The notes below the pieces were generated by a model. That model ran no database searches. It was not told the DNA's origin and was given only the letters and a program-made list of their open reading frames with translations. Shown one piece after another: positions 44,818-64,000 of a stretch of DNA of 64,000 bases; the first letter of the stretch is position 1, and each line of letters starts with the position of its first letter. The translations under genes were made by a program, and so were the position numbers. Source of the stretch: Verrucomicrobiota bacterium (lineage in GTDB: Bacteria > Verrucomicrobiota > Verrucomicrobiia > JABWAM01); contig JAHFSY010000015.1 of NCBI GenBank assembly GCA_023269615.1, forward strand, positions 1 to 64,000. The letters are read 5' to 3'.

Positions 44818-44882
44818 CAGGGGACACTCTACCGAGCAGTGTGCGTGAGAGCAAGAAGTCAGGTATGACGCCGAATGTTTAT

Positions 44883-46646: not shown

Positions 46647-46732
46647 GATTCCATATCAAGGCGCATGCTGCAAGATGGGATGTCCATTGATCTTGACTGC
46701 ATAAAGTCGATGCAAAAGACTGATGACTCATC

Positions 46733-48499
46733 GTGATCCATCTCTGCATCAACGATCAGGCGGACGGCCCGCATTCCGAGGCCGATATCCAACGCATGCT
46801 GGACGCAGGAAAAATCACCCGGGAAACCCTGGGCTGGAAGGAGGGGATGGAGCAATGGCAGCCACTCTCCGATTTTTTCGGGAAAGACATCCCGCCCTCT
46901 GTGGGAAATTCGGCCGCACCAGGTGCTTCAAGCGGAAAAAGTACAACCATTCCACCGGCGACCAGGATGGGCGGCAGTGCTTCGTTTGGGACGGCGACCG
47001 GGTCGTTTGTTTTTTCACCCGTGGTTGCGAAGGCACCGTTTGCCATCGTGTTTCTGGTGGGTGTCATCGGGTCCATCGTCGCCGGTGTGTTTTTAAAAAC
47101 AATTCCTTCGGTGGGGGAAGATGGTGCGCTGATGATCGCAATCGGCGGAATCTCCCTCTCGATCCTGGGTCCCATCGTGGCTTACTATATCGCCCGTTCG
47201 GCAAAAATTTCCGTTTCGATGTTCCAGCATGGATTCGAACTGGTCCGGCGAAAACAGACGACACGGTTGCACTTGTCGGAAATCCGCGATCTCAGGCTGA
47301 CGGAAACCCTGGGGGTCAGAAACGGCTCGGGTGCGAATCGCACCTTGTTGTTTGCGACCGAGCGTCAAAAATTTGGATTGGAATCGCGGACGAGCATGTC
47401 GGAGGTGGATCCGCTCCTGGACCTGTATCAACGGATGGTGACGGGATGCGCGGCGACGTTTCCGGCGCTTGCCGCAAAGGGACAATCGCTGCGCGGCCAG
47501 GGGTGGGTGTTTACGAAGGACGGCCTGTCTGTTCAAGGTCGGAACGAGGTGATTGCCCTGGTCGAGATAGATTTCGTGGGCGAGTTCGACGGGAAGGTTG
47601 GATTTTACAAAAAAGGGGAGGAGGAACCCGGCGTTGCCTTTCCTTCCACGGGTTCCAATGTCCACATTCTCATGGAGATCGTGAGGAACGATCTCAAGGC
47701 GAACAACCGGACGCGTGTCGGGTCCAAAATTTCCGAGAACCTGGGGCGGGTGCTGTTCACCAAGAACATCCTCGGCACGACCGGTTCTTTGACGAGGGCG
47801 TTTGTATGGGGTTTCATGCTGTTTGTGGCATGGGCCATCGGGATGGGGCTTTCCGCATGGCTGAACGACCTGCTTTTTCACTCCAAAGGCGCGCCCAACG
47901 CATTCATCCGCTGGACGATCCTGATCCTCTGCCAGGGGGTATCCTTCACGTTCATCGTGCTCTGGATCCAACGCTCCTTGCGATGCATGTTGAGATGTCA
48001 TGAACATGGGGTTTTCCGGCGGACTTTATTCTCCGAGCGCAAGATTCGTTTTGATGAAATGACTGCGTTTACGAACCAGGTGACGAAAAGCTTTGTGAAC
48101 GGCATCTACGCCGGCACGTCCATGCATATGGAGTTTGAGTGTGAGCCCAAAAAAATCAAAATCGGATATATCGGAAACGCCCAGGGAACGGACACCGCCC
48201 TCGACAAGCTGAGTGATGTGGCATCGTTGCATGTGGCCCGTCATTTGATTTCGGAAATCGCAGAGGGAAAACCCGTCCTGTGGGGGGATGCGCAGATGGG
48301 GGTGGATGGACTCAGCTTCCCGTCGAAAAAAAAGAAAACCGAGCCGGTGATGGTCCCGTATGAGAAGATCAAGTTCACGATCCAGGCTGGGGATCTCTAT
48401 CTTTTCTGGAAGGGAACGGAGGATCCGGACATGACCATTGCCTGCGGCTCGAAGAACTTCTGGCCATGCCTGCTCATCCTCCAGGGCGATCTCGACTAG
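46733..48499 (+). CDS. Membrane protein with N-terminal GYF-like DUF4339 domain
   Basis: N-terminus GPHSEADIQRMLDAGKITRETLGWKEGMEQWQPLSDF resembles DUF4339. Multiple TM helices follow. Confidence 0.45.
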   Translation: MIHLCINDQADGPHSEADIQRMLDAGKITRETLGWKEGMEQWQPLSDFFGKDIPPSVGNSAAPGASSGKSTTIPPATRMGGSASFGTATGSFVFSPVVAKAPFAIVFLVGVIGSIVAGVFLKTIPSVGEDGALMIAIGGISLSILGPIVAYYIARSAKISVSMFQHGFELVRRKQTTRLHLSEIRDLRLTETLGVRNGSGANRTLLFATERQKFGLESRTSMSEVDPLLDLYQRMVTGCAATFPALAAKGQSLRGQGWVFTKDGLSVQGRNEVIALVEIDFVGEFDGKVGFYKKGEEEPGVAFPSTGSNVHILMEIVRNDLKANNRTRVGSKISENLGRVLFTKNILGTTGSLTRAFVWGFMLFVAWAIGMGLSAWLNDLLFHSKGAPNAFIRWTILILCQGVSFTFIVLWIQRSLRCMLRCHEHGVFRRTLFSERKIRFDEMTAFTNQVTKSFVNGIYAGTSMHMEFECEPKKIKIGYIGNAQGTDTALDKLSDVASLHVARHLISEIAEGKPVLWGDAQMGVDGLSFPSKKKKTEPVMVPYEKIKFTIQAGDLYLFWKGTEDPDMTIACGSKNFWPCLLILQGDLD

Positions 48500-48556
48500 G
48501 GGCGCCTGCAACTTTTGAGTGGTGGTGGTGTTCAATTTCTCAAACCCGCTTCCCTC

Positions 48557-50083
48557 ATGCCCGATTCCAAATCCGAACTTCTGGCACCTTATCCTGGTCC
48601 GTGGGACGAGCGCGCGGCGGCGCATCTGTTGAACCGCGTGGCGTTCGGCGCTCCCGTGGACAGGGTGGAGGCGCTGATGAAGGAGACGCCCGACTCGGCG
48701 CTCAAGCGTTTTCTCTATTTCGAGTCGGTGGCCGACAACTGGCAGAAGCCCGAGTGGGCGGAGCCGCCGAAGGAGGATTTCATCCCGCCCTTCCTGATGA
48801 CGCAGGATGAGAAAAAGCAAAAGCAGCGGGAGCAGGGCCAGCATGCACGCGAGCTCCAGACCTGGTGGCTGCATCGCATGGCGCAGACCACCCGCCCGCT
48901 GCAGGAAAAGCTCGCCCTGTTCTGGCACGGCCATTTCGCCACGTCGCTCGACAAGGTGAAGGCCCCCTACATGATGTGGATGCAGAACGAGACACTCCGC
49001 CGCAATGCCAGCGGCAATTTCAGGACGATGGTCATGGAAATCAGCCGCGATCCCGCGATGATCCAGTGGCTCGACAACGACAGCAACCGCAAGGAGAAGC
49101 CGAACGAAAATTACGCGCGCGAATTGATGGAGCTCTTCACGCTGGGCGAGGGGCATTACACCGAAAACGACATCAAGGAATCCGCGAGGGCATTCACCGG
49201 CTGGGGGCTCCAGAAGCGTCAACAGCAGTACCAGTTCACGCCCAAACAGCACGACTCGGGCGACAAGATCTTCATGGGCAAAACGGGGCCCTGGGATGGC
49301 GGCGACATTGTGAACATCATCTTCGATCAGCCGCAGTGCGCGCGTTTTATCGTGACGAAGCTCTGGAATTATTTCGCATACGAAAATCCCGAGCCGGAAG
49401 TGCTGGACGGACTTTCTGAAATCCTGCGCAAGAACAATTACGAGCTCAAGCCGCTGCTCTGGAAGATGCTCTCCTGCCGGGCGTTTTATTCCGATCGTTC
49501 CGTGCGGACACAGATCAAAAGCCCCGTGCAGCTCGTCGTCGGCTCCTACCAGGTTCTGCAGCAGGAAGTCCCGCAGGCCGAGGGGTTCTCCCGCTTGCTC
49601 ATCAATATTTTGCGATTGATGGGACAGGAGCCGTTCCGACCACCCAACGTGAAGGGATGGGATGGCGGACTCACGTGGGTGACCACGTCCAGCCTTCTGT
49701 TGCGCTACAATTTCGCCGATTTCCTTGTGCATGGCGTTCCGCCACAAAGTGCGATCGGCAATGTCAAAGCCGGCAAGGGAAAGAAAAAACCTGTTGATCC
49801 AGCACAACTCGAGCGCATCCGCCGCAACGCGAAGACGCTGCCCCTTGTTTCGCTCTATGATCCCGCCGCCATGGCGTCCTCCGAGCAGGTGGTGAAAAGC
49901 CTTGGCCGCATCCTGTGGAACGCGCAGCCCGACGCGGAAAGTTTTGCGCAGTTCACGAAATTCCTCGACAGCAACGATGCGGGGGAGATGGTCGCATTCC
50001 AACCATCCAATCCCAACGCGGAACAAAAAGTCCGCGACCTCATCCACCTGATGATGAGCACTCCACAATACCAGCTTTGTTAA
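48557..50083 (+). CDS. DUF1800 family protein
   Basis: LALFWHGHFATS and ARELMELFTLGEG motifs. Paired with the downstream DUF1501 gene. Confidence 0.75.
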   Translation: MPDSKSELLAPYPGPWDERAAAHLLNRVAFGAPVDRVEALMKETPDSALKRFLYFESVADNWQKPEWAEPPKEDFIPPFLMTQDEKKQKQREQGQHARELQTWWLHRMAQTTRPLQEKLALFWHGHFATSLDKVKAPYMMWMQNETLRRNASGNFRTMVMEISRDPAMIQWLDNDSNRKEKPNENYARELMELFTLGEGHYTENDIKESARAFTGWGLQKRQQQYQFTPKQHDSGDKIFMGKTGPWDGGDIVNIIFDQPQCARFIVTKLWNYFAYENPEPEVLDGLSEILRKNNYELKPLLWKMLSCRAFYSDRSVRTQIKSPVQLVVGSYQVLQQEVPQAEGFSRLLINILRLMGQEPFRPPNVKGWDGGLTWVTTSSLLLRYNFADFLVHGVPPQSAIGNVKAGKGKKKPVDPAQLERIRRNAKTLPLVSLYDPAAMASSEQVVKSLGRILWNAQPDAESFAQFTKFLDSNDAGEMVAFQPSNPNAEQKVRDLIHLMMSTPQYQLC

Positions 50084-50125
50084 TGCCGTTTCATCCAATG
50101 AGTGGCCCATTCCCAATTCCACCAA

Positions 50126-50146
50126 GGCGCTTTCGGCGAAAGCGCC
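50126..50146 (+). terminator. Stem-loop downstream of the DUF1800 gene
   Basis: ggcgctttc ggc gaaagcgcc hairpin followed by a T-containing tract. A REP-B half-site follows immediately. Confidence 0.35.
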
Positions 50147-50222
50147 CTACCTTTGCGCTTCAGTTGCCGGGGGTAGGGCGCGCTCGCCGAGCGCGCCGTC
50201 AGGAACAAGGACTGTCCACTTT

Positions 50223-51545
50223 TTGGATGAGAACCTCAACAGGAGCATTTCCATGAAAAACGACATCCATCTCCAGACGCGCCGCGAATTTCTCCGTCGC
50301 TCCGTCACGATTGCCTCCGTGGCGTGGACGATCCCGGCCTTCCTGCATCGGACGGTGCTCGCGCTCGACAATCCACAGGGAGAATCCGTGATCGTCTCAC
50401 CGCACGACGACCCCATCCTCGTGGTGATCCAGTTGAGCGGCGGCAACGACGGGCTCAACACGTTGATCCCGATCGCCGATGACATCTATTACAAATCGCG
50501 CCCCAAGCTCGGAATTGCCCCGGGGCAGGCGTTGAAGCTCAACGACACGATTGGATTTCATCCCGACCTTGCGAAGCTGAAGGGGTTGTACGACAGCGGG
50601 AAGATGGCGGTGATCCAGGGCGTGGGTTATCCCAATCCGAACCGTTCGCATTTCCGCTCGATGGAAATCTGGCACACCGCGTGCGATGCCGACAAGGTGG
50701 AGAAATATGGATGGATCGGGCGCTACTTCGACAGCGCGTGCAAGGGATGCGACCCGACGGCCGCCGTCAACATTGGCAAGCTCGCGCCACAGGCTTTTTA
50801 CGCCAGGGGACCGCTGGGCGTTTCCGTGGAAGATCCCGAGATGTACCGCTGGCTCAACAAGGGAAGCGCGGCGCTGGGCTCGGCCGAGTCGTTTTTCAAG
50901 AGCGTGAACAAAGCGGCGTCGGGCGGCACCAATTCCGTGCAGGGCGCGGACGCCGTCATGACGGACGGCTCGCTCGATTATCTCCAGCGCACGGCGATGA
51001 ACGCCCAGCTCTCCTCCGACAAAATCCGCGAGGTCATCAAGCAATATCATTCGACCGTCACGTATCCCGAGTCGGAGATCGCCTACGGCCTGAAGCTCGT
51101 GGCGCAGATGATCGCGGGCGGGCTTCCGACGCGCATCTATTATGTCTCGCAGAGCGGCTACGACACGCATTCCAACCAGCTGGCCGACCAGAATCGTTTG
51201 CTCGGCGAGCTGGCGGAAGGCGTAGGCGCATTTTATTCCGACCTCGAGCAGCAGGGCAACGCGAAGCGCGTGCTGAGTTTCAGCTTCTCCGAGTTCGGGC
51301 GCCGCGTCGTGGAAAACGCCTCGGGCGGGACCGATCACGGCTGCGCGGGACCGATGTTTGTTTTCGGCGGGGCGATCAAGCCCGGCTTCTACGGCAAACA
51401 GCCCAGCCTCGCCGACCTGGACCATGGCGATTTAAAGTACAACGTGGACTTCCGTTCCGTGTACACCACGCTGCTCGAGAATTGGATGAAGACTGATGCC
51501 AAACCAGTTTTAGGACGCGCCTTTCCCAAGCTTGAATTCATCTGA
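50223..51545 (+). CDS. DUF1501 family (sulfatase-fold) protein with Tat signal
   Basis: RREFLRRS twin-arginine motif. The DUF1800/DUF1501 pair is typical of the PVC superphylum. Confidence 0.8.
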   Translation: MDENLNRSISMKNDIHLQTRREFLRRSVTIASVAWTIPAFLHRTVLALDNPQGESVIVSPHDDPILVVIQLSGGNDGLNTLIPIADDIYYKSRPKLGIAPGQALKLNDTIGFHPDLAKLKGLYDSGKMAVIQGVGYPNPNRSHFRSMEIWHTACDADKVEKYGWIGRYFDSACKGCDPTAAVNIGKLAPQAFYARGPLGVSVEDPEMYRWLNKGSAALGSAESFFKSVNKAASGGTNSVQGADAVMTDGSLDYLQRTAMNAQLSSDKIREVIKQYHSTVTYPESEIAYGLKLVAQMIAGGLPTRIYYVSQSGYDTHSNQLADQNRLLGELAEGVGAFYSDLEQQGNAKRVLSFSFSEFGRRVVENASGGTDHGCAGPMFVFGGAIKPGFYGKQPSLADLDHGDLKYNVDFRSVYTTLLENWMKTDAKPVLGRAFPKLEFI

Positions 51546-51779: not shown

Positions 51780-53216
51780 CTATTTCGCCTTCCGCAGATG
51801 CGACGGCAGAATCTTCAGCTCTTCCCGGTACTTCGCCACGGTCCGGCGGGCCAGCGGGATTCCCTTCAACGACAGGGCCGCCATGATGTCTTGGTCCGTC
51901 AACGGTTTGTTGCCCGGTTCACCCAGGATCAACTCGGAAATCGCATTTTGCACACCGTCCACCGTCATCATGTTTCCATCAGCCAGGCGGATGCCGGGGG
52001 TGAAGAAATATTTCAATTCAAACAGTCCATGCGGCGTCTGCATGTACTTGTTCGCAATCGCGCGGCTCACGGTGGTTTCATGGACGCCGATCTTTTGCGC
52101 GACCTCGGTCATCGTGAGCGGCTTGAGATGCGCGCTGCCGAAACTGAAAAAATCCATCTGCGACTGAAGGATTTCGCGGGCGATTTTCAGGACGGTCTGC
52201 TTGCGCTGCTCGATGCTCTTGATGAAAAACTTCGCGGCGCGCAAACGCTCGCGCACGTAGCTCTTGGCCTCGTTGCCCTGCGAGGACTGGCCGAGGATGT
52301 CCTTGTACGTGTTGTTGATGCGCACGGACGGAAGCCAGTCGTCGTTGGAGAAGACGACCCAATCCTCGCCCACTTTCTGGATTACGAGGTCGGCGGTGAT
52401 GTAACGGTTGTCGTCCTGGCTGAACCGGCTGCCTGGCTGGGGATCGAGCGTGGAAATGAGCGCGGCGGCGCGATGAATCTCCTCGAGCGAGCGCTTGAGC
52501 TCCACGGCGATGTCGGCATGCTTTTTTGCGGCAAGGAGATCCAGATGGCTTGAGACGACCTGGTACGCCAGCGATTCGGCCTTGTGGCCAAGGCGTTCCA
52601 GTTGCAGCAGGAGGCATTCACGCAGGTCACGCGCGCCCACGCCGATGGGATCGAAGGATTGAATCACGCGCAACGCCTCATCTGCCGAGCCGGGCTTGCC
52701 GCCGCTCCACTCCGCCATGTCCTCCGGGGTGGCCACGAGATAACCCTGCCCGTCCACGTTTCCAATCAGAGTCTCGCACAGCGGGTGCAACGCCTCGGGC
52801 GCATCCGACTCGTGGAGCTGGGTGATGAGATGTTCCTGGAGCGTTTCAGGCTTGGCGATGGATTCGAAAAAGGTCCGGCGCTGGTTTTCCTGCTCGGCGC
52901 TGGGACGCGCGGGTGCGCTCGACTGGTTGAAATAATCCCGCCACTCCTGGTCAAGCTGGGCCAGTTCCTTGAATTCCTTGTCGAGCTCGTCCTGCTTCCC
53001 GTCGCCATCACTGTCCTCCATCTCATCGGGGTCCTCGATGGCGGTTTCCTCGCTCGCCTCCTCCTCGAGGACCGGGTTGGTGGTCAGCTCCTGGCGGATC
53101 AACGCACTCAATTCCAGCGCAGGGATTTGCAGGATGTGCAGCGATTGCTGCATCTGGGGCGACAGCGATTGCTGCAACCCGAGTTTTTGCACTTGTTGGA
53201 GTCCTTGTGATGGCAT
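51780..53216 (-). CDS. rpoN: RNA polymerase sigma-54 factor
   Basis: Gln-rich region I. C-terminal RpoN box ARRTVAKYRE and an HTH. Confidence 0.9.
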   Translation of the reverse strand: MPSQGLQQVQKLGLQQSLSPQMQQSLHILQIPALELSALIRQELTTNPVLEEEASEETAIEDPDEMEDSDGDGKQDELDKEFKELAQLDQEWRDYFNQSSAPARPSAEQENQRRTFFESIAKPETLQEHLITQLHESDAPEALHPLCETLIGNVDGQGYLVATPEDMAEWSGGKPGSADEALRVIQSFDPIGVGARDLRECLLLQLERLGHKAESLAYQVVSSHLDLLAAKKHADIAVELKRSLEEIHRAAALISTLDPQPGSRFSQDDNRYITADLVIQKVGEDWVVFSNDDWLPSVRINNTYKDILGQSSQGNEAKSYVRERLRAAKFFIKSIEQRKQTVLKIAREILQSQMDFFSFGSAHLKPLTMTEVAQKIGVHETTVSRAIANKYMQTPHGLFELKYFFTPGIRLADGNMMTVDGVQNAISELILGEPGNKPLTDQDIMAALSLKGIPLARRTVAKYREELKILPSHLRKAK

Positions 53217-54715: not shown

Positions 54716-54881
54716 GAATCCATGTTAAATGGAAAACAGCGAAACGGCCAATGGGAAATGTGCCAGGCGCTGGCTGAAGGCTTTTCCGTCCGGGGAGCCC
54801 ATACGGAAAAAATGCTTTCTGAAGAGCTGAGGAGGTTCGCAAGCACTTGACTGATATATGATGACGATGTATGATATCATC

Positions 54882-55109
54882 ATGAGAACGATTGTGGATT
54901 TGCCATCGAAGCAGGTTTCCTCCCTGGCCGAGCTGAGTCGGAAACAGCATTTGTCCCGCGCTGAGATGATTCGCAGGGCCGTTGAGCTATATTTGAAGGA
55001 GCAACATGCCGGGGCTGCCGGTTCCGCCTTTGGGCTTTGGCGGGGGAGAAAGGTGGATGCCCTGAAGTTTGAAGACCGTCTTCGCAAGGAATGGGAATCC
55101 CGGTCGTGA
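54882..55109 (+). CDS. Type II antitoxin, ribbon-helix-helix (VapB/CopG-like)
   Basis: Small ORF immediately upstream of and overlapping a PIN gene. RHH-like N-terminus MRTIVDLPSKQVSSLAELS. Confidence 0.5.
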   Translation: MRTIVDLPSKQVSSLAELSRKQHLSRAEMIRRAVELYLKEQHAGAAGSAFGLWRGRKVDALKFEDRLRKEWESRS

Positions 55110-55471
55110 AGGCGTTGTTCGACACGAACATCCTCATTGATTTCCTCAACGGGGTTTCCGGCGCAAAGAGGGAAATCGAGAGGTACGATCAGCCTGCGAT
55201 CAGCCTGATAAGCTGGATGGAAACGCTGGCGGGCGTCAAGGATTCCGAGGAGGGAAAAATGGTCCGCGGATTTCTTCGCCACTTCGATGTCCGTCCCATC
55301 ACCGAGCCCATTGCGGAGCAGGCGGTTCGCGTGAGGCGGGACGAGGGGTTACGTCTTCCCGATGCCATCATTTACGCGACCGCCAGTGAGATGGGCTGTC
55401 TCCTGGTCACCCGAAACACGCGTGATTTCTCGACGCGTGATCCCATGGTGCGGGTTCCGTACAGGGTTTGA
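55106..55471 (+). CDS. vapC: PIN-domain toxin VapC
   Basis: ALFDTNILIDFL N-terminus with conserved acidic residues. Probable GTG start in a 4-nt GTGA overlap with the antitoxin stop; the track start is ATG at 55091. Confidence 0.7.
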   Translation: MKALFDTNILIDFLNGVSGAKREIERYDQPAISLISWMETLAGVKDSEEGKMVRGFLRHFDVRPITEPIAEQAVRVRRDEGLRLPDAIIYATASEMGCLLVTRNTRDFSTRDPMVRVPYRV

Positions 55472-58647: not shown

Positions 58648-59601
58648 CTACTTCAGGACGGAATCCTTCGGGTGCAAGTCCAGCTCGCCCAGGAGTTTCA
58701 TGTCCTCGTCGGGAAGGGGATTTTGGGCGGTCAGTAATTTGTTCCCATAGAAAATCGAGTTTGCCCCCGCAAAAAAGCAGAGCGCCTGGGCCTCGCGGGA
58801 AAGGTTGGTGCGCCCCGCCGAAAGCCGCACACGCGCCTTTGGAATCGCAATGCGCGTCGTGGCGATGAGCCGCACGAGCTCAAACACATCCACCGGCGAT
58901 TGGCCTTCCAGGGGCGTCCCCACGATCGGCGAAAGGCAGTTGATGGGCACGCTCTCGGGCGGTGGATCAAAATTTGTGAGCACCTCAAGCATCTTCAGGC
59001 GGTCATCCTCTGTCTCCCCCATGCCGATGATCCCCCCGCAGCAGACGGACATGCCCGCCTTCTGTGCGTGGCGGATCGTGTTCAGACGGTCTTGGAACGT
59101 GTGGGTTGTCACGATCCGCGAATAATGTTCGGGGCTGGTGTCAATGTTGTGGTTGTAGGCGGTGACGCCGGCCTTTTTCAATTCGCGCGCGGCGCCTTCC
59201 GTGAGCTGGCCGAGCGTGACGCACACTTCCATGCCGAGCGTGCTGACCTGGCGGACGATTTCGAGGACGGAATCAAAACGCGGGTCGCCCTCGCGCACGC
59301 CTTTCCACGCCGCACCCATGCAGAAACGCTGGGCGCCGACGGACTTCGCATTGCGCGCCGACTCCATCACTTCCTCCACGGGCATCAGCTTTCCGCCCTC
59401 CACGCCGGTGGAATAATGCGAGCTCTGGGCACAATAACCGCAATCCTCGCTGCAGCCGCCCGTCTTGATGCTCAACAGCGTGCAAAGCTGCACGGTGTCA
59501 TCCTTCCAATGATCGAGAAAAACTCCGCGTGCCTGCTGGATGAGCTCAAAGAAAGACTGGTGATAAATCCCGCGCAGGCGATCGAGTGTGGAGGAACTCA
59601 T
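58648..59601 (-). CDS. bioB: Biotin synthase
   Basis: Radical SAM cluster CSEDCGYC. BioB motif YNHNIDTSPEHYSRI. Confidence 0.85.
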   Translation of the reverse strand: MSSSTLDRLRGIYHQSFFELIQQARGVFLDHWKDDTVQLCTLLSIKTGGCSEDCGYCAQSSHYSTGVEGGKLMPVEEVMESARNAKSVGAQRFCMGAAWKGVREGDPRFDSVLEIVRQVSTLGMEVCVTLGQLTEGAARELKKAGVTAYNHNIDTSPEHYSRIVTTHTFQDRLNTIRHAQKAGMSVCCGGIIGMGETEDDRLKMLEVLTNFDPPPESVPINCLSPIVGTPLEGQSPVDVFELVRLIATTRIAIPKARVRLSAGRTNLSREAQALCFFAGANSIFYGNKLLTAQNPLPDEDMKLLGELDLHPKDSVLK

Positions 59602-59627
59602 GGATGCGCCGTGTTGAGAACCGGCGA

Positions 59628-59888
59628 CTAGGATTTTTTCACTTCCAGCGGGACCACATTCACGCGCTTGCCATTTTTATCAAACATCACACGGCCCTCG
59701 GCAACGGCGTAGATCGTGAAATCGCGTCCGAGCCCCACGTTCAAGCCGGGCGAAAACTTGGTGCCGCGCTGGCGGATGATGATGTTTCCAGAGATGACAT
59801 GCTCGCCGCCAAAGCGCTTTACACCCAGCCGTTTGCTGATGCTGTCGCGGTCGTTGCTGGAACTGCCTTGTCCTTTTTTATGTGCCAT
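59628..59888 (-). CDS. rpmA: 50S ribosomal protein L27
   Basis: [31 protein letters not shown]. Confidence 0.9.
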
Positions 59889-59909
59889 GGTGGAAAATGA
59901 GTGAAGGGT

Positions 59910-60221
59910 TCAGATTTTGATCCCGGTGATCTTCACGCGGGTCAGGTTCTGGCGATGGCCGCGGGTGCGGTGGTAGCCGTGGCGCCGTGTCATCTTGAAT
60001 GCGATGACCTTGTCGCCCTTGTATTGGTCGAGAATTTCACCGGTCACCTTCGCGCCCTTGAGGGTGGGGGAGCCCACCGTGACCTTGTCTCCGTCGGTGG
60101 CCATGAGGACGCGGTCAAACGTGACGCTTGCCCCCTTGTCCTGGGGCAGTTTTTCGATGGAAAGCACCGTGTCCTTCTCCACTCGGTACTGTTTGCTGCC
60201 GGTTTCAATGATCGCGTACAT
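59910..60221 (-). CDS. rplU: 50S ribosomal protein L21
   Basis: MYAIIETGSKQYRVEKD...RRHGYHRTRGHRQ. Start placed at the internal Met of the longer track ORF. Confidence 0.9.
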   Translation of the reverse strand: MYAIIETGSKQYRVEKDTVLSIEKLPQDKGASVTFDRVLMATDGDKVTVGSPTLKGAKVTGEILDQYKGDKVIAFKMTRRHGYHRTRGHRQNLTRVKITGIKI

Positions 60222-60407
60222 GGGTAAATTGGGTTGCGGTTTAAAGAGCCGGGCAATGTACCCATCATCCCTCTCCACCGCAAGTACTTTTGAATGGCTT
60301 GAATGGACGACGAAGCCATTTTGATTCCAGATCAATGCCCATTGAACTTTTCCCGTGAGGCTTTACTTTCCATACGGCCCGGCGCAGGATGTCGCCCGCA
60401 TGAAGGC

Positions 60408-62123
60408 ATGTCCATGAGCAAAAAGCCTGCTGCCCACAAACCCGCGGGTGCGACTTGTACGCCCCCAACACGACCTCCGTGGGAGACGTATCCCGTCACG
60501 CCAGGGCTGGACGCCCGCTCCTTTCAGGTGCCGCCGGAGGGAATGAGCCTGGAACAGTATGGCCGGGCGCTCGATTCGCTGAAGAAATATCTGAAGGTGC
60601 AACAATCAAGATTCCTCGGCTACCAGGTCAACCAGAACCTTGACTATGCACGGGACCTCGCATCGCTGCTCGACATCCACGTCAACAACGTCGGTGACGC
60701 CTTCGGCAGCGGGAACTTGACGGTCAACACCAAGTTTTTGGAACGCCCGGTGCTCGATTACTATGCCTCGTTGTGGAACGCGAAGTGGCCGCATGATCCC
60801 AGCGACGGCGAGTCGTACTGGGGTTACATTCTCAGCATGGGATCGACCGAGGGCAATCTCTACGCCTTGTGGAACGCCCGTGAATATCTGTCCGGCAAGT
60901 TTCTCATTGAGGACGACGGGATCGGTGAGTCACCGCAGCGGGGACTCCGCCCGCGCCGCCTGCTTTACGTGCAGGGGAAGGCTCCCTCGGAGAACCCCAA
61001 CGCGTTCACACCCGTTGCCTTCTACTCGGAGGACACCCACTACTCACTCGTCAAGGACAGCATGGTTCTCGGCCTCAGCACTTTTTACGAGATGGGAACC
61101 ACCCGTTATCCTGACATGAATCCGCTGGCCCCCGGCAAACCCTGGCCGCACGAGGTGCCGTCGCAAGGTGGCGGCGCAGGGCCGGGGTCCATCGATATCA
61201 ATGCCCTGGTCACGCTGGTCGAGTTCTTTGCTTCCAAGGGCCATCCCGTGATCTGTTGTTTCAACCTGGGTTCCACCTTCAAAGGTGCCTACGACGACGT
61301 GGAGATGGCCGGCAAGGCGCTGATGCCGATCTTCGAAAAGCATGGCCTGCATGAGCGTGCGATCCATTGGGATCCACGAAATCCAAAGAAGCATCATCTG
61401 CGCAAGGGCTACTGGATCCACGTGGACGGCGCGCTCGGAGCGTCCTACATGCCGTTCATCGAGATGGCTTTTAATCGAGGTCTTATCGCGCAGCGCGGTC
61501 CTGCGTTCGACTTCCGCCTGCCGTTCGTGAGTTCCATGGTAACCAGCGGACACAAGTGGATCGGCGCCCCGTGGCCCTGCGGCATCTTCATCACGAAGAC
61601 AAAGTACCAGATGCGGCCACCGGACAACCCCGCCTACATCGGATCACCCGACACGACTTTCGCAGGCTCGCGCAACGGCCTTTCCGCCGCCATCCTGTGG
61701 AGCCACATCGCCCGCACCTCGCACGAACAGCAGATGCGCAAAGCGCTGCTCACCGAGGAGATGGCGGCGTATGCCGTGACGCGCTTGCGCGACCTGCAAA
61801 AGAAGCTGGGCGAGGACCTGTGGGTCGAGCGCAGCCCACTGGCGCTGACCATCCGATTCAAGAAGGCGAATCCTGACATCGTTTTCAAATACTCCCTCAG
61901 CGGGGAGGCCTTGTATGTCAACGGCGAGCTGCGTGCCTACAATCACCTCTTCGCAATGGAAAGCACGACACGTGATCTCATTGACGAATTGATCACGGAT
62001 CTCTCCAAGCCGGGCGCGTTCCCGGCGCAGGACCCTCACCGCGAGACCCAGTCGAAAACCGCCGCCAGGCACGACGTCCATCGGCTCGTCCACTATCCCA
62101 CCCACGCGCGCGGGTTTCACTGA
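60408..62123 (+). CDS. PLP-dependent histidine decarboxylase homologue (group II decarboxylase, HdcA-like) with insertions
   Basis: Collinear motif matches to enterobacterial HDC: WGYILSMGSTEGNLYALWNAREY, SEDTHYSLVKD, HVDGALGASYMPFIE, SGHKWIGAPWPCGIF (PLP lysine), AGSRNGLSAAILW. It is about 190 aa longer than the classical roughly 380-aa enzyme. Confidence 0.7.
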   Translation: MSMSKKPAAHKPAGATCTPPTRPPWETYPVTPGLDARSFQVPPEGMSLEQYGRALDSLKKYLKVQQSRFLGYQVNQNLDYARDLASLLDIHVNNVGDAFGSGNLTVNTKFLERPVLDYYASLWNAKWPHDPSDGESYWGYILSMGSTEGNLYALWNAREYLSGKFLIEDDGIGESPQRGLRPRRLLYVQGKAPSENPNAFTPVAFYSEDTHYSLVKDSMVLGLSTFYEMGTTRYPDMNPLAPGKPWPHEVPSQGGGAGPGSIDINALVTLVEFFASKGHPVICCFNLGSTFKGAYDDVEMAGKALMPIFEKHGLHERAIHWDPRNPKKHHLRKGYWIHVDGALGASYMPFIEMAFNRGLIAQRGPAFDFRLPFVSSMVTSGHKWIGAPWPCGIFITKTKYQMRPPDNPAYIGSPDTTFAGSRNGLSAAILWSHIARTSHEQQMRKALLTEEMAAYAVTRLRDLQKKLGEDLWVERSPLALTIRFKKANPDIVFKYSLSGEALYVNGELRAYNHLFAMESTTRDLIDELITDLSKPGAFPAQDPHRETQSKTAARHDVHRLVHYPTHARGFH

Positions 62124-62186
62124 GGGCTCCGATCATGCCCGCCGCAGCCATTCAAATGCCCGACGGCGTGAAGGGAGTGGGCTGAT

Positions 62187-63584
62187 ATGAGCGCCCACTC
62201 TCCTTTCTCAGTCAAATCCCTGCAAGCCGTGCATCAGGAGGCGGTGGCTCGATCGGGGGGGCTCAAACCCTCACTCGGCGTCATCGACTTGATGGCCATC
62301 GGCATCGGGGCGACTGTTGGGGCCGGGATCTTCGTGCTGTCCGGTGTGGCGGCCCACGAGGCCGGGCCCGCCGTCGTGGTGTCCTTTTCCCTTGCTGCGT
62401 TGGCCTGTATCTTCACCGCGTTCGCTTATGCCGAGATGGGCGCGGCTTTGCCGGTGACGGGCAGCGCCTACGCCTATGTGTATGCCTCGCTGGGGGAGGT
62501 CATAGCCTGGATGGTGGGTTGGAACCTGTTTCTCGAATATGCGCTCGGCGCCAGTCTGGTGGCAAGCGGGTGGTCCGGCTACATGGCCGGTGTGCTCCGC
62601 GACCTGGGTGTGAACCTTCCCCCCTGGTGCGTGAACGATCCATCCGTGCCCGGAGGGCTCATCAATCTCCCGGCCATGCTGATTGTGCTCACCATGGCGT
62701 CCGTCGTTCTCCTCGGAATGCGGGAAAGCGCACGGGTTACGCGATGCATGGTCGCGCTCAAGCTCACGGCCGTCGCTGCGGTGATCATCGTGGGCGCCAC
62801 GCAGATTGAGCCGGCCAACTGGACGCCCTTTGTCCCCAACGGCTGGGGAAGCGTGTTCAAGGCCGCCGCTCTCGTCTTTCTGGCGTACGTCGGGTTCGAT
62901 GTGGTGACGTCGACGGCCGCGGAAGTGCGCAACCCGGGTCGCGATCTGCCGCGAGGCATCATCGGCTCACTCATCATCTGCACCATCCTGTACGCGCTGA
63001 TGTCGGGAGTCCTGACCGGCATGGTTCGCTACAATGCGATCGACGTCAAAAGTCCGATCACCAGTGCATTCAACGCGGCGCACCTGAACTTTATCGGCGG
63101 AGTGATCTCGGCCGGTGCACTGATCGGCATGGCCAGCGTGCTTCTGGCACTTCTCGTGGGACTCCCGCGAATCCTGCTGGCGATGGCACGGGATGGCCTC
63201 CTGCCAGCGTGGGCTGCCGTGATCCATCCCCGTACAGGCACCCCCGTCGCCACGACCCTGGCGGTTGCCATCGGCGTGTCACTCGCCACGGCATTCCTGC
63301 CCCTCACCGCACTGGCAAGCCTTTGTGGTGTCGGCACGCTGACTGCATTCAGCGCCGTATGCGCCTCCGTGGCGGTTCTGCGAAAGCGCGAACCCGACCT
63401 GCCCCGTCCTTTTCGTTTCCCCGGCCCATCATGGACCCCGTGGATCGGCTCGCTGGTCTGCCTGACGCTGCTCGCCCAGATCCTCCCGTCCATCTGGCTG
63501 CAACTGCTGATCTGGATGGCATCCGGTCTCGCGGTCTACGCTCTTTTTGGCTTCCGAAACAGCCGCATCGCCTGCACTCCATGA
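62187..63584 (+). CDS. APC-superfamily amino acid permease (candidate substrate/product antiporter)
   Basis: Twelve-TM topology. N-terminal LMAIGIGATVGAGIFVLSG consensus. Confidence 0.8.
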   Translation: MSAHSPFSVKSLQAVHQEAVARSGGLKPSLGVIDLMAIGIGATVGAGIFVLSGVAAHEAGPAVVVSFSLAALACIFTAFAYAEMGAALPVTGSAYAYVYASLGEVIAWMVGWNLFLEYALGASLVASGWSGYMAGVLRDLGVNLPPWCVNDPSVPGGLINLPAMLIVLTMASVVLLGMRESARVTRCMVALKLTAVAAVIIVGATQIEPANWTPFVPNGWGSVFKAAALVFLAYVGFDVVTSTAAEVRNPGRDLPRGIIGSLIICTILYALMSGVLTGMVRYNAIDVKSPITSAFNAAHLNFIGGVISAGALIGMASVLLALLVGLPRILLAMARDGLLPAWAAVIHPRTGTPVATTLAVAIGVSLATAFLPLTALASLCGVGTLTAFSAVCASVAVLRKREPDLPRPFRFPGPSWTPWIGSLVCLTLLAQILPSIWLQLLIWMASGLAVYALFGFRNSRIACTP

Positions 63585-63740
63585 TTCGAAGCCTGATCAT
63601 TTTTCTTTGTCTGGCGGGAGCCACGCATCGGGTGGGTGTTGAACCGCCCCGGTTGATGTGCAAAAAACTTCCCAACTTCGATCCGCCCGAATGGAAATCC
63701 GTGGAGGTTGATGAGAATAGCTAGACGCGGCTTGTCCTGT

Positions 63741-64000
63741 ATGATTATCACCAAGAAGAAACTTGTTGGCGGATCGGTTGCCGCAGCCATTGTTTTGGTT
63801 GTCTGGCTGGTTTTCAATCCGCCATGCAAATTTGGCTACTGCTGCTATGCATACACGACTTACAATGCCATGCCTCGTCCGCTTTCCGATTTGCAGATTC
63901 GCTGCGATGGAACCGTCCGAAAAATTCAGAAGACACACGCATTGACTTACGAGATGATCGAATGGCTTCTCGATCCACTGCCCGAGGTGCTCATCGTCGC
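63741..64000 (+). CDS. Hypothetical protein, 3' partial at window end (lower GC)
   Basis: Open frame from the ATG at 63741 to the window edge, with an N-terminal hydrophobic segment. No recognisable domain. Confidence 0.2.
   Translation, partial: MIITKKKLVGGSVAAAIVLVVWLVFNPPCKFGYCCYAYTTYNAMPRPLSDLQIRCDGTVRKIQKTHALTYEMIEWLLDPLPEVLIV

What the first reader, a model, noticed from the sequence alone, without database searches (positions are those of the whole stretch)
60408..63584. Histidine-decarboxylase homologue with large insertions, paired with an APC permease
The decarboxylase aligns motif-by-motif with PLP-dependent HDC, including the SGHKWIGAPWPCGIF lysine region. It also carries an N-terminal extension of about 90 aa and two insertions (around residues 185-215 and 290-310). 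The adjacent APC permease gives the classic decarboxylase/antiporter architecture used for acid resistance or proton-motive-force generation. The substrate may be histidine (yielding histamine) or another amino acid, given the divergence.
Basis: partly seen in the sequence, partly recalled or inferred. Interest (0 to 1): 0.5.

Follow-up and report, generated by a model that had tools for sequence, protein, structure and literature searches.

The report
Methionine-type decarboxylase plus amino-acid permease
The two genes are real and probably work together, but the enzyme is a close relative of bacterial L-methionine decarboxylase rather than histidine decarboxylase, and its partner looks like a proton-driven importer of neutral amino acids rather than a classic precursor/product antiporter, so this is a modestly interesting new member of known families.

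Summary
Both ORFs exist as described: decarboxylase 60408-62123 (571 aa) and APC permease 62187-63584 (465 aa). They lie on the same strand, 63 bp apart, with a good RBS and no predicted terminator between them.

**Decarboxylase.** It is not a divergent HDC with unique insertions. It aligns full-length with L-methionine decarboxylase (MetDC) of Streptomyces sp. 590 (PDB 7CIF, E 1e-150, about 50% identity; model TM 0.79/0.87). Bacterial HDC scores only E 1e-23, below the NCBIfam HDC cut-off. The N-terminal extension (about 45 aa) and the insertions are shared MetDC-family traits. All PLP and catalytic residues are present, as is Gln73, the equivalent of MetDC Gln64.

**Permease.** It is 45% identical to the proton-coupled transporter GkApcT and scores best against BcaP (branched-chain amino acids and Met). 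The GkApcT proton-site Glu is conserved. Antiporter models (AdiC, PotE, GadC, TyrP, HdcP) score 30-46 bits.

**Pairing.** It occurs only in three close relatives (at least 82-85% identity), one in unrelated flanks. None of 157 more distant decarboxylase loci has this permease.

**Best reading.** A lineage-specific two-gene module in a probable Verrucomicrobiota genome. It imports Met or aliphatic amino acids and decarboxylates them to primary amines. Symport versus exchange is unresolved.

The parts
60222..60407 (.). Divergent intergenic region between rplU (start 60221, minus strand) and the decarboxylase gene. It presumably holds the promoter of the two-gene unit.
   Evidence: The L21 start maps to 60221. 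The consensus scan found no sigma-70-like site here. No Rfam riboswitch or leader was found in 59500-64000. The promoter itself is therefore unidentified.
60408..62123 (+). [quoted passage not shown]
   Evidence: PDB 7CIF L-methionine decarboxylase: E 9.9e-151, query 12-534 against chain 7-549. Identity is 49.7% over 511 columns. The AF2 model (pLDDT 85.6) hits 7CII at TM 0.79/0.87, E 5e-58. HDC scores only E 1e-23, 22-23% identity.
60624..60629 (+). Codons for Gln73-Val74 in the GYQVNQ motif, the substrate-specificity site. Gln73 corresponds to MetDC Gln64. Val74 corresponds to plant SerDC Tyr111 / AlaDC Phe106.
   Evidence: Alignment: Gln in 117 of 119 family members; the next residue is Ala (62) or Val (39). 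7CIG is the deposited Q64A mutant. The role of the residue after 'YP' comes from PMC11407765. HDC has GYPES at this position.
61554..61556 (+). Codon for Lys383, the PLP Schiff-base lysine in SGHKW.
   Evidence: It aligns with MetDC Lys394 and is conserved in 118 of 119.
61635..61637 (+). Codon for Tyr410, the catalytic-loop tyrosine (MetDC Tyr421), the proton donor after CO2 loss.
   Evidence: 118 of 119 conserved. The role rests on my recollection of Okawa et al. 2021 and on the equivalent Tyr in SerDC/AlaDC (PMC11407765). It lies in a low-pLDDT mobile loop, residues 408-414.
62010..62120 (+). C-terminal tail, residues 535-571. It is a variable linker ending in the conserved terminal motif ...LVHYPTHARGFH (family consensus [VF]-P-x-x-G-R-G-F-[KRQH]).
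   Evidence: It is absent from HDC and from the characterised MetDC. The motif is present at the extreme C-terminus in 73 of 152 family loci and 65 of 119 proteins. pLDDT is 34-61.
62124..62186 (+). 63-bp spacer with a Shine-Dalgarno-like AGGGAG (62172-62177) 9 nt before the permease ATG. No terminator.
62187..63584 (+). APC-superfamily permease of the bacterial CAT / GkApcT / BcaP type, 465 aa. A crude hydropathy count gave 10 TM segments; its structural homologue GkApcT has 12.
   Evidence: PDB 5OQT GkApcT: E 4.3e-117, 45% identity, residues 7-461 against 4-460. NCBIfam BcaP scores 499.7 bits (cut-off 690); the antiporter models score 38-46 bits.
62535..62537 (+). Codon for Glu117, the equivalent of GkApcT Glu115, the proton-coupling residue on TM3.
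   Evidence: Mapping. Role from PMC5803215: E115Q keeps counterflow only, and mammalian facilitator CATs have Ser here. Also conserved: K192 (K191), D238 (D237), Y269 (Y268), R328 (R327). M321 is Leu322.

Best explanation
This is a lineage-specific two-gene operon in an uncultured, probably verrucomicrobial, bacterium.

- **Permease.** It is a BcaP/GkApcT-like member of the CAT branch of the APC superfamily. It takes up a neutral, hydrophobic amino acid together with a proton. The most likely substrates are L-methionine and/or leucine, isoleucine and valine.
- **Decarboxylase.** It is a cytoplasmic, MetDC-type, PLP-dependent enzyme. It binds the amino acid as an external aldimine on Lys383-PLP and releases CO2. 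It then protonates the quinonoid C-alpha from the loop tyrosine Tyr410. The product is the corresponding primary amine: 3-methylthiopropylamine from Met, isopentylamine from Leu.
- **Net effect.** One cytoplasmic proton is consumed per turnover. The amine leaves either as the free base or by counterflow through the same permease.

**Shown:** family membership of both proteins, intact catalytic and proton-coupling residues, and conservation of the gene pair as a unit in close relatives.

**Inferred:** substrate identity, co-transcription, direction and mode of transport, and the physiological purpose (pH or energy homeostasis, or amine production).
For: **Enzyme.**
- Full-length, co-linear match to crystallised L-methionine decarboxylase, including the N-terminal segment and all large insertions (E 9.9e-151).
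- The predicted structure superposes on 7CII/7CIF at TM 0.79/0.87. HDC gives TMq 0.58 at 22% identity.
- Gln73 (MetDC Gln64, the residue mutated in 7CIG), His211, Asp340, Lys383 and Tyr410 are conserved.
- The HDC equivalog cut-off is missed (210 against 305), and the HDC motif GYPES is replaced by GYQVN.

**Permease.**
- 45% identical over its full length to GkApcT.
- The proton-site Glu is kept (E117). The selectivity residue Met321 is the bulky hydrophobic Leu322, which argues against cationic substrates.
- The best NCBIfam model is BcaP. L. lactis BcaP carries branched-chain amino acids and methionine (PMC7058034). That is the same substrate set on which, from my recollection, MetDC-type enzymes act. 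VlmD acts on valine, leucine and isoleucine (PMC7794544), but whether VlmD belongs to this family was not verified here.

**Linkage.**
- Same strand, 63-bp gap, RBS, no terminator.
- The same order and orientation occur in L001 (87% / 86% identity, about 11-bp gap) and L081 (85% / 82%, 38-bp gap).
- In L081 homology to the window is confined to exactly these two genes, and the flanks are unrelated.
Against: - There is no biochemical data for any member of this sub-clade.
- Identity to the only characterised enzyme is about 50%. The loop FGSGNLTVNTK differs from MetDC's FQSGGYKPNTK. The query also carries a conserved C-terminal tail that MetDC lacks. Specificity and regulation may therefore differ.
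- The pairing is seen in only three closely related genomes. The next-nearest permease homologues (63-70% identity) have no decarboxylase neighbour. None of 157 more distant decarboxylase loci has this permease.
- GkApcT also catalyses counterflow, so homology cannot separate symport from exchange.
- No exit route for the amine is encoded nearby.
- No promoter was identified.
Confidence: 0.55

Rival explanations
1. The pair is a precursor/product exchange system. The permease swaps external Met (or Leu) for the internal monoamine. That exchange is electrogenic, and together with cytoplasmic proton consumption it generates proton-motive force or protects against acid. The system would work like HdcA/HdcP, TdcA/TyrP, GadB/GadC or AdiA/AdiC.
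For: - The operon-like arrangement is conserved as a unit in three relatives and in two genomic contexts.
- The CAT family includes exchangers and facilitators, and GkApcT performs counterflow (PMC5803215).
- Decarboxylase plus APC-permease pairs are the textbook layout of such systems (established knowledge).
- A second, unrelated APC permease lies directly upstream of a MetDC-like gene in Streptomyces nogalater (L037). This suggests transporter pairing has recurred in the family.
Against: - The permease is not in any family with known precursor/product antiporters. Scores are TyrP 46, GadC 41.5, PotE 38 and AdiC 38 bits, against cut-offs of 409-650.
- In the PDB search AdiC scores E 4e-7 and GadC is absent.
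- It retains the Glu that couples GkApcT to protons.
- The pairing is absent from the rest of the enzyme family.
- No acid-stress regulator or second decarboxylase is nearby.
Confidence: 0.2
2. The two genes are functionally independent neighbours. The permease is a general nutritional amino-acid importer. The decarboxylase acts on endogenous amino acids to make an amine for another purpose, such as a building block, a signal or volatile, or S-methylmethionine/DMSP-type chemistry.
For: - Across 158 family loci there is no conserved neighbour of any kind. The largest Pfam neighbour count is 2-4 of 76-78.
- Most family members are stand-alone genes.
- BcaP/GkApcT-type permeases are very common (6970 hits at E<=1e-30), and their nearest relatives stand without a decarboxylase.
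Against: - The spacing is tight (11-63 bp), and order and strand are the same in all three relatives.
- The pair is retained as a unit with homology ending exactly at its borders in a different genomic context.
- The expected substrate ranges of the two protein families match.
- No biosynthetic genes are nearby in the window.
Confidence: 0.17
3. It is a genuine histidine decarboxylase (histamine producer) that has merely diverged, as many database labels ('histidine decarboxylase') state.
For: - JGI and NCBI labels on homologues say so.
- HDC is the best NCBIfam model (210 bits).
- The core fold and PLP motifs are shared with HDC.
Against: - The score is below the HDC equivalog cut-off (305).
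- The match to MetDC is 127 orders of magnitude better in E-value.
- The specificity motif is GYQVN, not GYPES.
- The partner permease resembles neutral amino-acid importers, and the histidine-histamine antiporter model does not appear among the permease's 25 best NCBIfam matches.
Confidence: 0.03

Closest known systems
L-methionine decarboxylase (MetDC, EC 4.1.1.57) of Streptomyces sp. 590, PDB 7CIF/7CIG/7CII/7CIJ/7CIM
   Same: - Same long (about 560-aa) group II PLP decarboxylase architecture, with the N-terminal segment and all large insertions.
- 49.7% identity, E 1e-150, TM 0.79/0.87.
- Gln64, His195, Asp336, Lys394 and Tyr421 are all conserved.
   Different: - The loop after the NN-x-GD motif differs: GNLTV against GGYKP.
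- The residue after Gln is Val, not Ala.
- The query has a 36-aa C-terminal tail ending in a conserved ...P-x-x-x-RGF-x motif that MetDC and its Kitasatospora/Streptomyces clade lack.
- The host is probably Verrucomicrobiota, not an actinomycete.
- The substrate is untested.
GkApcT (Geobacillus kaustophilus, PDB 5OQT/6F34) and BcaP (L. lactis / B. subtilis YhdG): bacterial CAT-branch APC transporters
   Same: - 45% identity over the full length to GkApcT.
- Glu115, Lys191, Asp237, Tyr268 and Arg327 are conserved.
- The best NCBIfam model is BcaP at 499.7 bits.
   Different: - The score is below the BcaP equivalog cut-off (690), so it is BcaP-like, not BcaP.
- Met321 is Leu.
- GkApcT and BcaP are not known to be paired with a decarboxylase.
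- GkApcT needs the small subunit MgtS in the crystal (my recollection). I did not look for such a subunit here.
Classic amino-acid decarboxylase / antiporter operons (HdcA-HdcP, TdcA-TyrP, GadB-GadC, AdiA-AdiC, CadA-CadB, SpeF-PotE)
   Same: A PLP (or pyruvoyl) decarboxylase gene lies next to an APC-superfamily permease gene on one strand. The chemistry consumes a cytoplasmic proton.
   Different: - The permease belongs to a different APC branch (CAT/BcaP), whose characterised bacterial members are proton symporters.
- The enzyme is MetDC-type.
- The pairing is restricted to one narrow lineage.
- No regulator gene is linked.
Group II histidine decarboxylase (Photobacterium phosphoreum 7ERU/7ERV; Morganella-type HdcA)
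   Same: - Same fold and the same PLP-binding motifs (S-x-HK, D-x-A, THYS, GGTE-x-N).
- It is the nearest short-form relative together with plant Ser/Ala decarboxylases.
   Different: - HDC is about 375 aa and lacks the N-terminal extension (about 45 aa), four insertions and the C-terminal tail.
- 22-23% identity by Foldseek.
- The specificity motif is GYPES against GYQVN.
- The equivalog cut-off is not reached.
Valine decarboxylase VlmD (Streptomyces viridifaciens, valanimycin pathway)
   Same: It is a PLP-dependent decarboxylase of aliphatic amino acids (Val, Leu, Ile) of similar length (PMC7794544). From my recollection of the MetDC cloning paper it is similar in sequence to MetDC.
   Different: I could not obtain the VlmD sequence, so the relationship was not tested here. 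VlmD sits in a biosynthetic gene cluster, and the window gene does not.

Membership tests
[quoted passage not shown] | Profile score above the curated threshold | tested here: met
   PF00282 scores 41.5 bits against a cut-off of 27.
[quoted passage not shown] | PLP Schiff-base Lys in S-x-H-K, Asp to the pyridine N, stacking His, phosphate-binding (S/G)-T-E-G-N loop, and mobile-loop catalytic Tyr | tested here: met
   K383, D340, H211, S146-T147-E148-G-N150 and Y410 are present. Each is conserved in 118-119 of 119 relatives, except S146 and T147, which vary conservatively (Ser/Cys/Ala; Thr/Ser).
L-methionine decarboxylase (MetDC) type | Full-length co-linearity with the crystallised enzyme, including the N-terminal segment and the insertions absent from HDC | tested here: met
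   Query 12-534 against 7CIF 7-549, E 9.9e-151. Three-way alignment. TM 0.79/0.87.
L-methionine decarboxylase (MetDC) type | Gln64 (specificity) and Tyr421 (acid catalyst) equivalents | tested here: met
   Gln73 and Tyr410 are present. 7CIG is the Q64A mutant. The assigned roles rest on my recollection of Okawa et al. 2021, which could not be opened.
L-methionine decarboxylase (MetDC) type | Decarboxylation of L-Met to 3-methylthiopropylamine | not testable with these tools
   This needs an enzyme assay.
Bacterial histidine decarboxylase (NCBIfam NF002748 equivalog) | Score at or above the equivalog cut-off | tested here: not met
   210.2 bits against a cut-off of 305, in two separate stretches.
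Bacterial histidine decarboxylase (NCBIfam NF002748 equivalog) | HDC-type specificity motif (GYPES) and a compact chain of about 375 aa | tested here: not met
   GYQVN in place of GYPES. The protein is 571 aa with four insertions and two terminal extensions.
BcaP branched-chain amino-acid transporter (NCBIfam NF053761 equivalog) | Score at or above the equivalog cut-off | tested here: not met
   499.7 bits against a cut-off of 690. It is the best-scoring model but sub-threshold.
Bacterial CAT-branch APC transporters (GkApcT-like) | Full-length homology to GkApcT | tested here: met
   E 4.3e-117, 45% identity, residues 7-461 against 4-460.
Bacterial CAT-branch APC transporters (GkApcT-like) | Proton-coupling Glu on TM3, plus the TM5 Lys, TM6B Asp and TM7 Tyr | tested here: met
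   E117, K192, D238 and Y269 are present. Roles from PMC5803215.
Bacterial CAT-branch APC transporters (GkApcT-like) | Proton-driven uptake of neutral amino acids | not testable with these tools
   This needs a transport assay.
Precursor/product antiporters of decarboxylation systems (AdiC/PotE/CadB APA family; GadC; TyrP; HdcP) | Membership of one of these transporter families by profile | tested here: not met
   TyrP 46.4 (cut-off 630), GadC 41.5 (640-650), PotE 38.2 (409), AdiC 37.7 (574). PDB AdiC scores E 4e-7 and there is no GadC hit.
Precursor/product antiporters of decarboxylation systems (AdiC/PotE/CadB APA family; GadC; TyrP; HdcP) | Obligatory amino-acid/amine exchange | not testable with these tools
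   Counterflow is possible in GkApcT but has not been measured for this protein.
Decarboxylase-transporter operon (as a system) | Conserved adjacency of the two genes across genomes | tested here: inconclusive
   Adjacency is kept in 3 of 3 close relatives, including one with unrelated flanks. It is absent in 157 more distant decarboxylase loci and in three permease relatives at 67-70% identity.

The most novel reading that the evidence does not exclude
A CAT/BcaP-branch permease has been recruited, in one verrucomicrobial lineage, as a methionine (or leucine) / monoamine exchanger for a MetDC-type decarboxylase. That would be a previously undescribed neutral-amino-acid decarboxylation cycle that generates proton-motive force or protects against acid. 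The conserved C-terminal ...P-x-x-G-R-G-F-x tail of the enzyme would act as a regulatory (for example pH-gated) active-site plug that the characterised MetDC lacks.
Probability: 0.12. Interest if true: 0.55.

Novelty: new member of a known kind. Interest (0 to 1): 0.3.

Why it matters
**Annotation.** This family has about 170 clusters at 50% identity (E<=1e-30) and more than 1100 sequences. It is widely labelled 'histidine decarboxylase', and its partner permease type is labelled 'APA basic amino acid/polyamine antiporter'. Taken at face value, those labels would wrongly predict histamine production and acid-resistance antiport in environmental genomes.

**Biology.** Only one member of the enzyme family has ever been characterised, and its physiological role is unknown. 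A compact enzyme-plus-importer module gives a direct, testable handle on that role. It links uptake of Met or branched-chain amino acids to formation of volatile or signalling amines such as 3-methylthiopropylamine and isopentylamine.

**Enzymology.** About half of the family, including this protein, carries a conserved C-terminal motif. The crystallised enzyme lacks it, so the existing structures may miss a regulatory element.

Tried and rejected
- **MetDC structure paper.** I tried to read Okawa et al. 2021 (DOI and PMC7888583). It is not held. The roles of Gln64 and Tyr421 therefore rest on my recollection, on the existence of the Q64A entry 7CIG, and on the analogous SerDC/AlaDC data.
- **Riboswitch or leader.** I searched 59500-64000 for a riboswitch or leader (SAM, T-box or similar). 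The only hit was a meaningless miRNA match at E 0.35.
- **Promoter and terminator scan.** No promoter was found in the divergent intergenic region, and no terminator between the genes.
- **Flanking repeats.** I looked for repeats that would mark a mobile cassette. Only short chance matches turned up.
- **Conserved neighbours.** I ran a Pfam census of the nearest upstream and downstream ORFs in 80 genome loci and tblastn of the permease against all 166 loci. There is no conserved partner.
- **Permease relatives.** The next-nearest relatives (P0124, P0126, P0130) have no decarboxylase neighbour.
- **Nitrospirales origin.** I considered this from the label on L001. I set it aside because the window's RpoN groups with Verrucomicrobia (71% to the best named hit) and the window carries a DUF1501 protein. 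L001 is a 3.2-kb contig in a MAG, so its label is weak.
- **DMSP or S-methylmethionine pathway role.** The literature gave no link, and there are no methyltransferase, aminotransferase or aldehyde dehydrogenase genes nearby.
- **VlmD.** I could not obtain the sequence to test its relationship.
- **Literature on MetDC-transporter pairs.** None was found in the held library.

Full report
**1. What is in the sequence.**

The region holds two long ORFs on the + strand. The first runs 60303..62123. The ATG at 60408 gives 571 aa, the start an independent gene caller chose on an identical contig. The second is 62187..63584, 465 aa.

Upstream, on the opposite strand, lie rplU (start 60221) and rpmA, then bioB, a PpiC-type isomerase, an MsbA-like ABC exporter, a VapBC pair, an NtrC-type regulator and rpoN. 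The pair therefore sits in a housekeeping region. Its G+C content is unremarkable.

The 63-bp spacer has AGGGAG 9 nt before the permease ATG and no terminator-like hairpin. The scan found no sigma-70-like promoter in the 186-bp divergent region, and Rfam found no riboswitch or leader.

**2. The decarboxylase is a methionine-decarboxylase-type enzyme, not a divergent HDC.**

- **Profiles.** Pfam sees only a partial Pyridoxal_deC match. The best NCBIfam model is the HDC equivalog, but at 210 bits against a cut-off of 305 and in two pieces.
- **Solved structures.** L-methionine decarboxylase of Streptomyces sp. 590 (7CIF) matches at E 9.9e-151 over query 12-534 against chain 7-549. Plant Ser/Ala decarboxylases score about 1e-30 to 1e-32, and Photobacterium HDC scores 3e-23.
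- **Predicted structure.** An AlphaFold2 model built on 46 homologues (pLDDT 85.6, pTM 0.87) finds all eight MetDC chains first (E about 1e-57, TM 0.79/0.87, 46-47% identity). Ala/Ser decarboxylases follow at TMq 0.58-0.60, and HDC at TMq 0.57-0.58 with 22-23% identity.
- **Extension and insertions.** I recovered the true P. phosphoreum HDC sequence from the PDB and aligned it with the query and MetDC. Relative to HDC the query has:
  - an N-terminal extension of about 45 aa;
  - insertions at 167-204, 226-257, 312-329 and 352-366;
  - a 36-aa C-terminal tail.

Every feature except the tail is shared with MetDC. In the model the insertions are mostly ordered.

**3. Catalytic competence and specificity site.**

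In a 119-sequence family alignment the query keeps all the catalytic positions:

| MetDC residue | Query residue | Role | Conservation |
|---|---|---|---|
| Lys394 | K383 | PLP Schiff base | 118/119 |
| Asp336 | D340 | pyridine N | 119/119 |
| His195 | H211 | ring stacking | 119/119 |
| STEGN loop | S146-N150 | phosphate binding | E and N 119/119; S and T vary conservatively |
| Tyr421 | Y410 | loop acid catalyst | 118/119 |
| Gln64 | Q73 | specificity | 117/119 |

It is not a pseudo-enzyme.

7CIG is the deposited Q64A mutant. That fits my recollection that the authors assign substrate specificity to Gln64 and the acid-catalyst role to Tyr421. I could not open the paper.

Independent support for the location of the specificity site comes from plant enzymes. 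The residue after the conserved 'YP' (Tyr111 in AtSerDC, Phe106 in CsAlaDC) switches Ser/Ala specificity (PMC11407765). In the alignments that 'P' is MetDC Gln64, and the switch residue is Ala65 in MetDC and Val74 in the query. HDC reads GYPES here, while the query reads GYQVN.

The pocket signature is therefore MetDC-like and hydrophobic, not HDC-like. Three caveats apply:
- Overall identity to MetDC is 49.7%.
- The loop after NN-x-GD differs (GNLTV against GGYKP), and there the query follows the family consensus while MetDC is the outlier.
- The tail is absent from MetDC.

**4. The permease is a GkApcT/BcaP-type importer.**

- **Profiles.** NCBIfam ranks BcaP first (499.7 bits, cut-off 690), then the generic 2A0306 and CAT models. 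TyrP, GadC, PotE and AdiC reach only 38-46 bits.
- **Structures.** The best match is GkApcT (5OQT, E 4.3e-117, residues 7-461 against 4-460, 45% identity). Eukaryotic CATs follow at about 1e-70, AdiC scores E 4e-7, and GadC is not found.
[quoted passage not shown] Glu115 is the proton-coupling residue: E115Q retains counterflow only, and mammalian facilitator CATs have Ser. Met321 blocks cationic substrates (PMC5803215).
- **What the query keeps.** E117, K192, D238, Y269 and R328 are conserved, and Leu sits at the Met321 position.
- **What BcaP does.** L. lactis BcaP carries branched-chain amino acids and also methionine (PMC7058034). This overlaps the substrate range expected for a MetDC-type enzyme. 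VlmD acts on Val, Leu and Ile (PMC7794544).

By family, then, the permease groups with importers. Exchange is not excluded mechanistically.

**5. Is the pairing meaningful?**

*Distant relatives.* I fetched 80 genome loci and 77 metagenome loci that carry homologues of the decarboxylase.
- tblastn of the permease against all of them finds it only next to the closest relatives.
- A Pfam census of the nearest downstream and upstream ORFs shows no conserved neighbour. AA_permease appears in 1 of 76 downstream ORFs and does not appear among the families listed for the 78 upstream ORFs. The greedy ORF picker missed the L037 permease found later.
- The nearest permease relatives outside the clade (67-70% identity) have no decarboxylase beside them.

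*Close relatives.* The pair is always intact, in the same order and closely spaced.
- L001: 87% / 86% identity.
- L081: 85% / 82% identity, 38-bp gap.
- In L081 the flanks are unrelated (Phospholipase_B upstream, a MASE1/CHASE kinase downstream). Homology to the window begins about 30 codons into the decarboxylase gene and ends at the permease stop (L081 8027-11035 = window 60503-63578).

The two genes therefore travel as a unit. This supports functional coupling, although the evidence comes from one narrow lineage.

*Other transporter pairings.* A hydropathy screen plus Pfam found sporadic, non-homologous transporter neighbours elsewhere in the family:
- an unrelated APC permease 168 bp upstream in Streptomyces nogalater (L037);
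- an NSS/SNF symporter in L141;
- MFS, MatE and AI-2E transporters in others.

This hints that coupling to transport has arisen more than once.

**6. Host.**

L001 is labelled 'Nitrospirales', but it is a 3.2-kb MAG contig. The window's RpoN has its best named relatives in Verrucomicrobia (71%, then 57%, 52% and so on). A DUF1501 protein, typical of the PVC group from my own knowledge, is also encoded. I take the host to be an uncultured verrucomicrobial heterotroph, which makes amino-acid uptake plausible.

**7. Mechanism proposed.**

- **Shown:** families, intact catalytic and coupling residues, and a unit-like gene pair.
- **Inferred:** the permease imports Met and/or aliphatic amino acids with a proton. 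The cytoplasmic enzyme forms the external aldimine on K383-PLP, loses CO2, and protonates C-alpha from Y410 on the mobile loop (residues 408-414 have low pLDDT, as expected for that loop). The product is 3-methylthiopropylamine or isopentylamine. One proton is consumed per turnover.
- **Unknown:** how the amine leaves. I rate symport followed by passive or other exit as more likely than obligatory exchange, but only moderately so.

**8. Known or new.**

Both proteins are clear members of known families, so I file this as a new member of a known kind. Three aspects are not described, as far as the held literature shows:
- any physiological context for MetDC-type enzymes;
- a decarboxylase paired with a CAT/BcaP-branch permease;
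- the conserved C-terminal motif.

The family is small but widespread: 173 representatives at E<=1e-30 among 1.84 billion. It occurs in Acidobacteriota, Cyanobacteria, Myxococcota, Bacillota, Actinomycetota, Planctomycetota and others.

**9. Verdict.**

Interest is modest at 0.3.

Noticed in passing
window 62010-62120 (decarboxylase residues 535-571); also L002-L022, L048, L090-L097 and others: After a variable linker of about 25 aa that follows 'DLS-x-PGAFP-x-Q', about half of the family ends in a conserved motif at the extreme C-terminus. The consensus is [LIV]-x-[VF]-P-x-x-G-R-G-F-[KRQH]; the query reads ...LVHYPTHARGFH. It is found in 73 of 152 loci and 65 of 119 proteins. It is absent from the crystallised MetDC and from the Kitasatospora/Streptomyces clade. 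The model gives it low confidence. It may be a docking or active-site-plug peptide, by analogy with the GadB C-terminus (my recollection). Its function is unknown.
   Followed up: partly
window 51780-53216 (rpoN) versus L001: The closest decarboxylase/permease relative (L001, a 3.2-kb contig) is labelled 'uncultured Nitrospirales'. The window's sigma-54 has its best named hits in Verrucomicrobia (71%), and a DUF1501 protein is encoded at 50223-51545. Either the short MAG contig is mis-binned or the pair has been transferred between phyla.
   Followed up: partly
L037:4307-5833 (+), L141:2866-4251 (+), L165:1410-2669 (+), L115:3301-4674 (+), L090:3761-4810 (+): Other MetDC-like genes have unrelated transporters as same-strand neighbours. 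These are a distant APC permease (Streptomyces nogalater), an NSS/SNF sodium symporter, an MFS, a MatE and an AI-2E transporter. Transporter coupling appears to have arisen independently several times, with no conserved partner.
   Followed up: partly
L112:3946-4890 with L112:5001-6716; L163:3886-4878 with L163:5001-5829 (also L113, L164, L166): In 33%-GC, gene-sparse metagenome contigs, a 314-330 aa 7TM protein lies 111-123 bp upstream of a MetDC-like gene (49% identical to the query). It hits Pfam 7tm_1 (rhodopsin-family GPCR) at 33-36 bits against a cut-off of 30.5. The two 7TM proteins are 83% identical, and TPR_12 genes and a second 7tm_1 fragment lie nearby. This looks like a low-GC eukaryote with a horizontally acquired decarboxylase next to a GPCR gene.
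   Followed up: partly
homologue tables: Source annotations look misleading. MetDC-like proteins are named 'histidine decarboxylase', and GkApcT/BcaP-like permeases are named 'APA family basic amino acid/polyamine antiporter'. Neither name agrees with the best structural or profile relatives.
   Followed up: yes
window 54858-55109 and 55091-55471 (+): A ribbon-helix-helix (CopG) antitoxin-like ORF overlaps a PIN-domain ORF. This is a VapBC-type toxin-antitoxin pair lying between the NtrC-like regulator and the MsbA-like ABC exporter.
   Followed up: partly
window 39538-51545: Five consecutive large ORFs have no NCBIfam match. Pfam finds only repeats (HEAT, PQQ_2, TPR) in the 1759-aa protein, nothing in the 426-aa and 699-aa proteins, and DUF1501 in the 440-aa protein.
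   Followed up: no
window 60684-60716 (decarboxylase residues 93-103): The loop following the NN-x-GD motif reads FGSGNLTVNTK in the query and P-F-x-S-G-N-F-T-x-N-S-K in the family consensus. In the characterised MetDC it reads FQSGGYKPNTK. If this loop lines the substrate pocket, the crystallised enzyme may be atypical for the family.
   Followed up: no
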